A DNA stretch of 64,000 nucleotides from Blastocystis sp. Blastoise (lineage: Eukaryota; Protista; Bigyra: Opalinata), in contig JBBPEB010000009.1 of the NCBI GenBank assembly GCA_039096225.1, positions 248,001-312,000 on the forward strand, in the 5' to 3' direction. The translations under genes were made by a program, and so were the position numbers. Position 1 is the stretch's first letter. Each line of letters begins with the position of its first letter. The notes below the pieces were generated by a model, which worked only from the letters and a program-made list of their open reading frames with translations, was not told where the DNA came from and did no database searches. Positions 27,778 to 50,642 of the stretch are shown here, piece by piece.

Positions 27778-28590
27778 TTAGTTTTTGGAGACTTCTTCGA
27801 AGTTTTCGACAAGTTCAGGAACAGATTCTTCAGCAGCAGGAGCAGCAGCTTCAGCGGGAGGAGCAATATCCTTTAAGTTTTCAGGATTGAAGATGTTGGA
27901 ACCAAGTTGAGAGAGGATATCAGGTAACATATCTTGGAACTTTTTGAATATATATTATTTAGAAATACGTTTCAAATAGTCATTTCAGTATAAAAAACTA
28001 GTTAAATACAGTAGAAGAATAAAATGTATATATATATATATACTTTTGGTTTCAGAACGACCACTTACAGCATAGGTGTTGCAAGCAGGAGCGACTTCAA
28101 CCATATAAAAAAATAATAATAATCATTTAGTTCCATAAAAGTCTGTAAATAAAAATAATAATAATAATAATAATAATAATAATATATATGTATAGATATA
28201 TATAAATAATTTAAAAGATATTCAATTGTATTTCAACCAAAAATAATAATAGTAATAAGAATAAAAACAAAATAAATATTAAAAAAAAACAATAATTTCA
28301 ATAAAAATAATAATAATAAAAGTGAATTATATACCCTTAGGGGCCTTGAAGTGGGTGATGGTACCATCAGCATTGAAGAAGTTGACTTCTTGAATACCAG
28401 GAAGACTTTGAGAACCACATCTCTTAAGAGTAGCAGCAAGTTTCTTATCGTCACCAGAGTTGGTCTTGTGGACAATAGGCTTACGACGTTGAGAACCCTT
28501 ACCACCAGTACGGGCGGCAGTTCCGAATCTTTCAGCAAGCTTCTTACGGTTTTCTTCAATTTCTTGTTGAGTAAGGCCAGTAGCAGACAT
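27778..28590 (-). CDS. BTF3: Nascent polypeptide-associated complex beta (BTF3/EGD1)
   Basis: RTGGKGSQRRK, DDKKLAATLKR, IQEVNFF, HFKAPKV, ETKKFQDMLPDILSQLG, VPELVENFEE. Both introns need non-AG acceptors (see findings). Confidence 0.95.
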
Positions 28591-29491
28591 TATGAATAAA
28601 GGTGAATAGACAATATTATTGTATATATAAACCTAGCAGTTTTGTGGATAAAAATATAGGAAATTTAGAACATTTCGCCCGTTTTGTGACGATGAACCGT
28701 GTTTATTTGGATTTTTCATTGACATAGATCCATGTTCCCCTGGGGATTTTTATTTTTTAGAATAGAAGCTCATATTTTATAGAATGACCCTGTTCACAAA
28801 ATAGTAAATAACAGACTCTAGACAATTCATATTGATTCGAGAGAATGACTTATAATTAGAGATTATTTTCATAGGAAGATCCCTATTTTAATTGATTGTC
28901 GTTTTTCTAGGTTATTTTATCTTTTTCTTAAAAGTTTTTTTTTCAATTTCACTATGTATATTTATTGAAAAAGTTGTCATGAAGAGCTCAGAATGGCATA
29001 CAAAAAGAACAATGCCTAAGGAGATTATTACAATTCATTAATGAGATTGTTTTTTCATTGTATAGTATTGCCAATTCTCTATAATAAATAGTTTTCTGAA
29101 ATGGGAATGGATATTCTATTATTTTAATTAAATAAAAGTCATTATAAAAGAATCAAATGTTCATTCAATTGGTATTTACAGCGTAATAATGTTATAAGAG
29201 AGATTTTTATGATGTAATATTTCTGTACATATCGTTCAAGAAAATAAATATGATGTTTGAATTTATTATTTTTGTAAAAAATGAATGAATAACGAGTTTT
29301 GAATATGATTTGATGTGTATTCTATTTAACTACACATGATAAATATATTTACTATTAATAAAGTAATAAATAAAAATTCATCAAGCAAATAACAACAAAA
29401 AATGGATTTTTTTAAACATTTTTTCTGTTGTTACGAAAACGTCTTCTGATAGTTATACGTGTTTTTATATTTTGTTTCTAATAAATTAAGA

Positions 29492-29722
29492 ATGATGCCT
29501 TCATGGTTGTATACGTTTTGTTCCAACTGCGAGATTTTTTTCTTGTGGATCTGGTCATGGATACTATCTTGTTGCTCTGGAAATAATCGTCACACTCGTG
29601 CAACATCCTTGAGAGTTCGTCCAGCACCTCCTGGAAAGCCTTTGAATCTTAACGCTCTTCAATCGAAACGTGTTTTTGTGTCTACTCGTTATGTTGCAGT
29701 TCCAAATGATACAAATAAGTGA
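29492..29722 (+). CDS. Possible small orphan protein (76 aa) with hydrophobic N-terminal segment and CC motif
   Basis: Open frame locally richer in GC with gene-like codons (GTT CGT CCA GCA CCT CCT GGA); no recognised homology. Confidence 0.35.
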   Translation: MMPSWLYTFCSNCEIFFLWIWSWILSCCSGNNRHTRATSLRVRPAPPGKPLNLNALQSKRVFVSTRYVAVPNDTNK

Positions 29723-49069: not shown

Positions 49070-49788
49070 TTAATTGAAAGGATGAAAAAAAATAATGGAA
49101 ACAAAACAGTCTTTTTCTCCTCTTTTTAAGTTCATTTCCTTGTTGAACATGAAGAAAACTGTTTGCTTGTTAATTCATATACATAAAGAATATTATAGCT
49201 CTTCGATTTTATGGAGCAACAATCTTGTAAAACTTATGATTGATTATTTGTGAATAAAAAATTGTGAGATTTATTAATATTATTTTGATTGATAAAAAAA
49301 ATTCTTTTTAAATAATAAAAAAAGAATACTAAAAATGTGAATATATTGTATAAAAAAGTTCACAAAATAATAGATTATGATAAATATTCATGCTTTAAAT
49401 GCAGGCTAGACAACTTTAAAACAAATAAAACAACATTCTTAAGAAGCAAAAGTGAATACACATCATTTGATTCAAAAAAATAGTTTAAAAACAAGGTTAT
49501 TTAGAGAAGTTTAAGATTAAAAAAATGAGAAATGCACTCTATAAAACGAAATAAATAATTAAATAGCTATAAAAGACTTAAATAAGAAATTTAAAGAAGC
49601 CACTATTAGAAAACCACGGGGATAAATCTTTGTAAATCCAGGGGTGAAATTATGAAATTGATACAAAAATTTAGGCTTTTACGTTTTTTAAGAATTTACC
49701 CCCATAAGAAAAGAAAAAATGAGTTATAACCTATATTTTGTTGTCTAACAATATATTCTATTGCCGCTTGTAATTTAATAATAATAAC

Positions 49789-50642
49789 ATGGCTCCTCCT
49801 CCTGCTACTGGTACTGAAACTGTTAGTATGTAAATTCTTCAAGTTGCTCAAATATTTTCTCTTCATAATAACAAAAAATCTAAATGATCCATCATTATAA
49901 TTTACTTAAGAGCTGTTGGTGGTGAACCCGCTGCCGCCGCTACTCTTGCCCCTAAGGTTGGTCCTCTTGGTATGGCCCCTAAAAAGGTTGGTGATGATAT
50001 TCAAAAGGCTACTATGGACTGGAAAGGTCTTAAAGTTACCTGCAAGCTTACCATTGTAAACCGTCAAGCTACTGTTGAAGTTGTCCCCAGTGCTGCTTCT
50101 TTACTTATTAAGGCTCTTAACGAACCCCTCCGTGATCGTAAGGCTACTAAGGGTCAAGGTGTTATGTTTATCAACTTTTTACAAAATTATATTTATATTA
50201 TATGTTTTATTCCTTTTTTAGAATTAATTATTATCTTTTTCTTCACTTATATATATATATATATATATATGAATTATCCATTATCTATAATTCCTAATAT
50301 TTTATGCATATATATATATGTAAATAATTTTATGGTGTTCACCACAACGGTAACCTCACCCTCGATCAAGTTACCAACGTTGCCAAGGCTCTTCGTCACC
50401 GTTCTTATGCTAAGGAAATGTCTGGTTCCGTTAAGGAAATCTTAGGTACTTGCCAGTATGTTTTTTAATCGTTATATATATATATATATATATTAAAAGC
50501 GTTACCTCTATTTATGCTATTTATATAAATATTATTTTTATTTTATTTTCATTATAAAGCTATTGGTTGTACTGTTGATGGTATGACTCCTCAACAAGTT
50601 ATGCAAATGATCGATAACAAAGAAATCGAAATTTCTGCTTAA
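49789..50642 (+). CDS. RPL12: 60S ribosomal protein L12 (uL11)
   Basis: YLRAVGGE...[50 protein letters not shown]. All three introns need non-AG acceptors. Confidence 0.97.

What the first reader, a model, noticed from the sequence alone, without database searches (positions are those of the whole stretch)
27942..50557. Seven non-AG intron acceptors, only in highly expressed genes, each copying the upstream exon end
Seen: BTF3 intron 28334-28101 ends TGG (exon ends AAGG) and 28043-27942 ends CAAAA (exon ends CCAAAA). RPS25 37333-37407 ends TTG (exon ATG); this is the weakest case because the intron is stop-free and in frame. AspRS 43978-44105 ends TAA (exon GAA). RPL12 49826-49900 ends TAA (exon GTTA), ~50160-50335 ends TGG with a donor reading TGTT like the next exon, and 50456-50557 ends TAA (exon CA). 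Nearby AGs give frameshifts, stops or loss of conserved residues. Introns checked in other genes are canonical. Inference: the leading explanation is an assembly artefact from polishing with RNA-seq reads. If genomic reads confirm the bases, it would mean mRNA-templated conversion of splice junctions plus a spliceosome tolerant of AA/GG/TG acceptors, which would be a major finding.
Basis: partly seen in the sequence, partly recalled or inferred. Interest (0 to 1): 0.7.

Follow-up and report, generated by a model that had tools for sequence, protein, structure and literature searches.

The report
RNA-read polishing scars at introns
In this gut-protist genome, many intron ends in ribosomal-protein and similar genes repeat the neighbouring exon's letters instead of the standard GT or AG, most likely because RNA reads used to correct the assembly overwrote them, so this is probably a data error that spoils gene models and not new splicing biology.

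Summary
All seven non-AG acceptors are in the sequence, and protein alignments or RNA contigs support six of the junctions well. The organism is a Blastocystis.

The pattern extends across the genome and affects donors too. 24 of 40 introns in ribosomal-protein genes and BTF3 are non-GT-AG, in 14 different dinucleotide pairs, against 4 of 127 in proteasome, chaperonin, AspRS and snoRNP genes. 35 of 36 odd bases equal the adjoining exon's base and touch the junction. Tracts run 1-10 nt, and the rest of the splice consensus is intact.

Two of the RPL12 introns are GT-AG at the same positions in relatives' metagenome contigs. No U12 motifs and one ordinary U2AF1 were found.

This is the footprint expected when unspliced RNA-read overhangs outvote DNA during polishing. 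A toy simulation gives a similar acceptor spectrum.

No genomic reads were available, so the decisive test is open. Verdict: assembly artefact, about 92%. It matters as a quality warning: public BTF3 and RPS25 models are wrong at these sites.

The parts
27778..28590 (-). BTF3 / NAC-beta gene, 3 exons, 158 aa when read at the odd acceptors
28101..28334 (-). BTF3 intron 1, GT..GG; last 2 nt copy the exon end; inferred true end TAG
   Evidence: the next in-frame AG loses 2 residues
27942..28043 (-). BTF3 intron 2, GT..AA; last 5 nt equal the exon end
   Evidence: the next in-frame AG loses 3 residues
37330..37718 (+). RPS25 gene, 3 exons
37333..37407 (+). RPS25 intron 1, GT..TG after ATG; in frame and stop-free; read through in public model P0122
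   Evidence: same pattern in RPS15 and RPS17
37438..37481 (+). RPS25 intron 2; AG present but the end repeats the exon's AAG run (end may be 37478, 37481 or 37484); probable eighth site
42332..44961 (+). Aspartyl-tRNA synthetase gene, 6 introns, 5 canonical
43978..44105 (+). AspRS intron 5, GT..AA after exon end GAA
   Evidence: exons meet at Pfam PF00152 positions 96/97
49789..50642 (+). RPL12 (uL11) gene, 4 exons, 166 aa
49826..49900 (+). RPL12 intron 1, GT..AA; the intron at this position is GT-AG in 4 of 4 related contigs (3 distinct sequences)
50162..50337 (+). RPL12 intron 2, TT..TG, both ends altered, 6-nt junction repeat; GT-AG in 2 of 2 related contigs that cover this position
50456..50557 (+). 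RPL12 intron 3, GT..AA
48784..48838 (-). Control: RNA-joined canonical GT-AG intron in the neighbouring gene, no junction repeat
48958..48995 (-). Control: second RNA-joined canonical GT-AG intron in the neighbouring gene

Best explanation
The odd intron ends copy the adjoining exon base for base, and they are most likely assembly errors made when RNA-seq reads were used to polish the genome. Shown: the altered bases touch the junction, equal the spliced-mRNA sequence, occur at donors and acceptors, and are concentrated in ribosomal-protein genes. Inferred: a read that crosses a splice junction by only a few bases is aligned straight into the intron. In abundant transcripts these overhangs outnumber true intron reads, and the consensus takes the exon's base. 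Repeated rounds or gapped alignment extend the tract to about 10 nt. The real genome is predicted to have GT..AG at these sites and an ordinary spliceosome.
For: 24/40 introns altered in ribosomal-protein genes and BTF3 against 4/127 in the controls. 35/36 odd bases equal the exon base (binomial p 5e-16 at 1/3) and are contiguous with the junction. There are 14 different non-canonical pairs (such as CC-AG, AA-AA, GT-CC, TG-AG) with no shared motif, while donor +3..+6 still reads ATAT or ATGT in most. Where AG survives, -3 is A in 6/21 high-class introns, all after exons ending AAG or CAAAG, against 2/125 in controls: the same copying one base deeper. The two altered control donors sit where the intron already resembles the next exon (vote weight 3 and 8; 111 of 127 donors have 2 or less), as read alignment predicts. 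A one-round simulation on canonical introns gives AA, AT, TG, AC, GG and CG acceptors, all seen in the data. RPL12 introns 1 and 2 are GT-AG at the same positions in related metagenome contigs. False differences in intronic bases within 6 bp of junctions are a documented RNA-alignment artefact (PMC4232354, PMC4605292, passages). The only served runs holding the window are one RNA run and one of unrecorded type that behaves as spliced RNA.
Against: No genomic reads were seen, and the assembly's methods were not read, so RNA polishing is inferred. The toy model predicts that nearly every junction of an abundant gene would change, equally at both ends. In fact 16/40 keep GT-AG (both introns of RPLP1, for example) and acceptors outnumber donors 19 to 7. 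The two altered control acceptors have an ordinary vote weight of 2, shared with 45 unaltered ones. One odd base (RPS15 intron 3, GA donor) is not the exon's base. The relatives with canonical introns are distant subtypes (82-83% protein identity for the named ones), not this lineage. Outside the window, junctions rest on reading frame and by-eye continuity, not RNA.
Confidence: 0.92

Rival explanations
1. The bases are real. Spliced mRNA or its cDNA templates short repair tracts across splice junctions in highly transcribed genes, and the spliceosome tolerates the loss of GT or AG there.
For: Copying of mRNA sequence and dependence on gene class are also what this predicts. RNA is joined precisely at altered RPL12 junctions. 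One of two near-identical RPS4 copies lacks an intron exactly while the other has it with a copied acceptor. Transcript-templated repair exists in human cells (PMC12065846, abstract).
Against: The published signature of such repair is whole-intron deletion, not a kept intron with 1-10 altered bases. It would need tolerance of 14 arbitrary pairs in the most heavily translated genes while 123/127 other introns keep a very narrow GTATAT..TATAG-like consensus. No shared alternative motif, no U12 signals, and one ordinary U2AF1. Introns at the same positions are canonical in relatives. Blastocystis ST1 has 98.3% GT-AG (PMC5608401, passages).
Confidence: 0.04
2. Still an artefact, but by another route: cDNA or RNA reads entered the DNA library or the assembly graph, or the contigs were edited to fit transcript alignments.
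For: It gives the same footprint. The best-holding run has no library record and behaves as spliced RNA. Tracts up to 10 nt and a missing intron go beyond simple one-mismatch overwriting.
Against: Base-by-base changes that start at the first mismatch are more simply produced by alignment and consensus calling.
Confidence: 0.03
3. The boundaries are misplaced and splicing uses nearby canonical sites, or pre-mRNA editing restores AG.
For: Public models P0121 and P0122 use nearby AGs or read through. In-frame canonical alternatives within 15 nt exist for 12 of 28 altered introns; RPL30 intron 1 could be GT-AG with 2 extra residues. Editing of GT-AA to GT-AG is mentioned in PMC7072748 (passage).
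Against: 16 of 28 have no such alternative. In the window the alternatives delete conserved residues or add stops. RNA joins match the odd RPL12 sites. A-to-I editing could explain only the AA acceptors, not TG, GG, CG, CC, AT or AC.
Confidence: 0.01

Closest known systems
RNA-seq misalignment into introns near splice junctions (false RNA-DNA differences; PMC4232354, PMC4605292)
   Same: Intronic bases within a few nt of a junction take the adjoining exon's sequence.
   Different: There it yields false variant calls; here the bases stand in the reference sequence itself, with tracts up to 10 nt.
Fritillaria borealis non-canonical introns (PMC13326754)
   Same: Efficiently spliced introns with non-GT and non-AG ends, including 3' AC and AT.
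   Different: There 95% of introns genome-wide fall into fixed classes (AG/AC, AG/AT) with a YAY motif and duplicated U2AF. Here 97% of control introns are GT-AG, the odd ends share no motif and follow the exon.
U12-type minor introns (present in Blastocystis, PMC5608401)
   Same: A second intron class that can have non-GT-AG ends.
   Different: No AT-AC pair, no exact U12 5' motif in 28 altered introns; donors are U2-like.
RNA-templated double-strand-break repair and reverse-transcriptase intron loss (PMC12065846)
   Same: Spliced mRNA sequence written into DNA.
   Different: The known signature is precise whole-intron deletion; here 28 introns are kept with altered edges. One RPS4 copy does lack an intron.

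Membership tests
RNA-read misalignment / polishing artefact | Altered bases are intronic, contiguous with the junction and equal to the adjoining exon | tested here: met
   35 of 36 bases
RNA-read misalignment / polishing artefact | Enriched in abundant transcripts | tested here: met
   24/40 against 4/127. Abundance is taken from gene class (established knowledge) and a partly circular codon score; contig depth cannot rank genes.
RNA-read misalignment / polishing artefact | Genomic DNA reads carry GT/AG | not testable with these tools
   No DNA run of this strain was served
RNA-read misalignment / polishing artefact | RNA reads were used in building the assembly | not tested
   Assembly methods not read
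U12-type introns | 5' motif ATCCTTT at +3..+9 (motif recalled) | tested here: not met
   0 of 28 exact, 1 of 28 with one mismatch
U12-type introns | CCTTAAC-like branch point near the 3' end (motif recalled) | tested here: not met
   1 of 28 loose match
Fritillaria-type non-canonical splicing | Most introns genome-wide are non-canonical, in fixed classes | tested here: not met
   123 of 127 control introns GT-AG; 14 scattered pairs among the altered
Fritillaria-type non-canonical splicing | Duplicated, divergent U2AF1 | tested here: inconclusive
   One U2AF1-like locus (L178/L182, recognised from recalled sequence) among 17 CCCH matches, a lower bound
Fritillaria-type non-canonical splicing | Duplicated U2AF2; altered U1/U6 methylation | not tested
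   No search made
RNA-templated repair / RT intron loss | Precise whole-intron deletion | tested here: not met
   All 28 altered introns are retained. One separate case of a missing intron in an RPS4 copy cannot be assigned to biology or artefact.

The most novel reading that the evidence does not exclude
The bases are genomic: this Blastocystis lineage writes spliced-mRNA sequence back into the edges of introns of its most transcribed genes, a frozen intermediate of intron loss, and splices these introns without GT or AG.
Probability: 0.04. Interest if true: 0.9.

Novelty: not a real feature. Interest (0 to 1): 0.17.

Why it matters
As an artefact it is a practical warning. The error is hard to spot, targets the ribosomal-protein genes used in phylogenomics and intron-evolution work, and already distorts public proteins: the BTF3 model lacks 5 residues and the RPS25 model carries 25 intron-derived residues. 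It can also fake non-canonical splice sites and possibly intron losses. A simple diagnostic follows: measure the repeat length at junctions by expression class. If genomic reads confirmed the bases, it would show mRNA-templated rewriting of splice sites and a spliceosome free of GT-AG, which would be a major result.

Tried and rejected
Genomic reads: the run search returned no DNA run; 2 of 4 listed runs hold part of the stretch, one on record as RNA and one a guess. Reads were laid only on 48300-51000, so the BTF3, RPS25 and AspRS junctions have no RNA check. A low-depth contig signal inside RPL12 intron 2 was not listed, so its bases could not be read. Contig depth was not used to rank expression.

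The metagenome scan gave 18 loci: 4 Blastocystis-like by their RPL12 sequence, none of this strain. The other 14 were not examined.

Promoter-motif searches were meant to find ribosomal-protein genes; they added RPS15, RPL7, RPL6 and RPS17, and the rest were repeats or other genes. The PF00828 search found only a mitochondrial-type L15. The GTPase loci were used only as intronless training exons and were not scored for introns.

A scan for three adapter 10-mers found none in the window or own-genome loci. Poly(A) overwriting at 3' ends was looked at by eye only and was not evident. The idea that duplicated genes escape alteration holds for the P1-like pair but fails for RPS4.

Rows dropped: 24 of 141 parser introns were left out of the control because they lay in terminal parts where the parse ran into flanking DNA or skipped an exon (judged by eye). 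13 of them were flagged non-canonical; counting them all would give 17/151. The other window genes parsed were not counted. Their internal introns in well-scoring genes were canonical (kinase 6/6, Sec1-like 7/7), and the flagged ones were mostly terminal or in low-scoring parses.

Literature searches found no paper describing this artefact in a polished assembly. Passages of 10.1101/2021.03.14.435266, PMC7238635, PMC12749355 and PMC12931034 concerned polishing in general or with DNA reads and added nothing. Earlier scan notes held nothing.

Full report
Observation. RPL12 hits Blastocystis proteins best, and NCBI proteins identical to the window's BTF3 and RPS25 exons are labelled Blastocystis. 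The window lies in a 33.3-Mb, 34-contig assembly.

The junctions are real. RPL12 read at the three odd sites gives 166 residues that align with three homologues; a nearby AG would delete 2-4 residues of the conserved IYLRA stretch or 4 residues at intron 3. RNA contigs of runs X1 and X2 skip 176 nt at intron 2, with 6 letters fitting either side, and one X1 contig's loose end fits the intron 3 junction. The AspRS exons end and begin at consecutive Pfam positions 96 and 97. The public BTF3 model, which uses downstream AGs, shows gaps of 2 and 3 residues against human BTF3 at the two junctions. The public RPS25 model reads through the in-frame intron and gains 25 residues that a homologue lacks. 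Two RNA-joined introns in the gene beside RPL12 are GT-AG with no junction repeat.

One boundary needs moving. In related metagenome contigs the intron matching RPL12 intron 2 lies after the first base of the Ile codon that aligns with the window's Val. That puts the intron at 50162-50337: donor TTATGT, one base from the genome's common GTATGT, and acceptor ending GGTG, a 4-nt copy of the exon end.

Genome-wide sample. I fetched ribosomal-protein, proteasome, chaperonin and snoRNP genes by family and motif searches. Introns were placed by a relaxed-site parser and by eye. In ribosomal-protein genes and BTF3, 24 of 40 introns are non-GT-AG (7 donors, 19 acceptors, 14 different pairs); in the controls, 4 of 127 (Fisher p 1e-14). 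Without the four genes of the finding it is 18 of 33 against 3 of 121. 24 parser introns at gene ends were dropped from the control, 13 of them flagged non-canonical; keeping them gives 17 of 151. Junctions outside the window have no RNA check.

Anatomy. 35 of 36 odd bases equal the adjoining exon's base and lie in an unbroken run from the junction. Acceptor-side copies of 4 nt or more occur in 15 of 40 high-class and 0 of 127 control introns, up to 10 nt (RPL7) and 9 nt (RPL30). RPL14 intron 3 reads AA..AA, and RPL6 intron 2 starts CC. Beyond the copied run the usual consensus mostly resumes. Where AG survives, position -3 is A in 6 of 21 high-class introns, each after an exon ending in AAG, against 2 of 125 controls. 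In 22 of the 24 cases one end is intact and fixes the placement, so the match to the exon is not a result of where the boundary was drawn. The one exception, a GA donor in RPS15, may be a genuine GA-AG intron, a class mentioned for Blastocystis (PMC5608401, passages).

Mechanism. A read that crosses a junction by a few bases is often aligned into the intron. False differences within 6 bp of junctions are a known result, and tools trim such ends (PMC4232354, PMC4605292, passages). If such alignments drive a consensus polisher, the intron edge takes the exon's bases where RNA depth is high (inference). A toy model with recalled short-read scoring, run on the 123 canonical control introns, turns acceptors into AA, AT, TG, AC, GG and CG in one round and lengthens tracts with more rounds; all six types are seen. 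The two altered control donors are among those that most resemble the next exon (weights 3 and 8). The model does not explain why 16 of 40 high-class introns keep GT-AG, why acceptors outnumber donors, or which control acceptors changed.

Against the biological reading. RPL12 intron 1 is GT-AG in 4 of 4 related contigs (3 distinct sequences) and intron 2 in 2 of 2 that cover it, though these are distant subtypes. The altered introns have no U12 signals. One conventional-looking U2AF1 was found among 17 CCCH matches, a lower bound. In Fritillaria, 95% of introns are non-canonical, in fixed classes, with duplicated U2AF (PMC13326754, abstract and section 21). RNA-templated repair is reported to delete whole introns (PMC12065846, abstract).

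For the biological reading. One of two RPS4 copies lacks an intron precisely, while their other shared introns match at 248 of 259 and 171 of 175-187 bases and the flanking exons are nearly identical. This could be true recent intron loss or deletion by the polisher. It is the best single site for a PCR test.

Limits. No genomic reads were served, and the assembly's methods were not read, so the use of RNA reads is inferred. Expression class rests on gene identity and a partly circular codon score. Six literature searches found no description of this artefact in a polished assembly. No supplements were opened. PMC7072748 was seen as passages; papers named only in search listings were not used.

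Verdict. The cause is an assembly artefact at about 92-95%, with 4% left for real mRNA-templated rewriting. Interest is low as biology and modest as a quality warning.

Noticed in passing
L093 / L169 (G000:C16:~681900) against L094 / L168 (G000:C14): Two near-identical RPS4 copies; the C16 copy lacks the 120-nt intron exactly. Recent intron loss or a whole intron deleted by polishing.
   Followed up: partly
window 49636-49651 and 49693-49704; L010, L048, L049, L051, L077, L086, L168, L169: Shared upstream motif CCAGGGGT(T/G)AAATT, often with ATTTACCCCCA, before several ribosomal-protein genes; also before an RFC subunit and in a multi-copy element. A candidate promoter element.
   Followed up: partly
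L009, L053, L054, L055, L077, L080, L092: RPS12, both EF1-alpha copies, RPLP2, RPLP0 and RPL27 have no coding introns, and EF2 has an 857-residue open frame, while CCT genes have 5-10 introns each. True loss or polishing cannot be told apart here.
   Followed up: no
L043, L045, L046, L050, L052 (contigs C15, C23, C34): A multi-copy AT-rich element with two ORFs and the CCAGGGG motif, near-identical on three contigs, with homopolymer-length differences between copies.
   Followed up: no
L048:2226-2299: RPS15 intron 3 has a GA donor that does not copy the next exon; possibly a genuine GA-AG intron.
   Followed up: partly
P0121, P0122: Public protein models for BTF3 (5 residues short) and RPS25 (25 intron-derived residues) are wrong at the altered sites.
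   Followed up: yes
L078, L079 (G000:C15): Inverted duplicate pair of a P1-like acidic ribosomal protein gene, with canonical introns in both; P0, P1, P2 and this pair share a near-identical C-terminal coding tail.
   Followed up: partly
L013, L014 (C7, C29); L175, L176 (C13, C5): Further duplicated segments: NHP2 with flanks on two contigs, and a CCCH-protein gene on two contigs.
   Followed up: no
window 50669-50686: RPL12 transcripts end at 50669, 8 nt before a TGTTTTGTT motif like the polyadenylation-associated motif recalled for Blastocystis; the stop codons of the genes examined are genomic.
   Followed up: no
window about 17000-20100 (-): A gene joining ankyrin-like repeats, a histone-deacetylase-like domain and a C-terminal PHD-like finger (names from recalled motifs, parse).
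   Followed up: no
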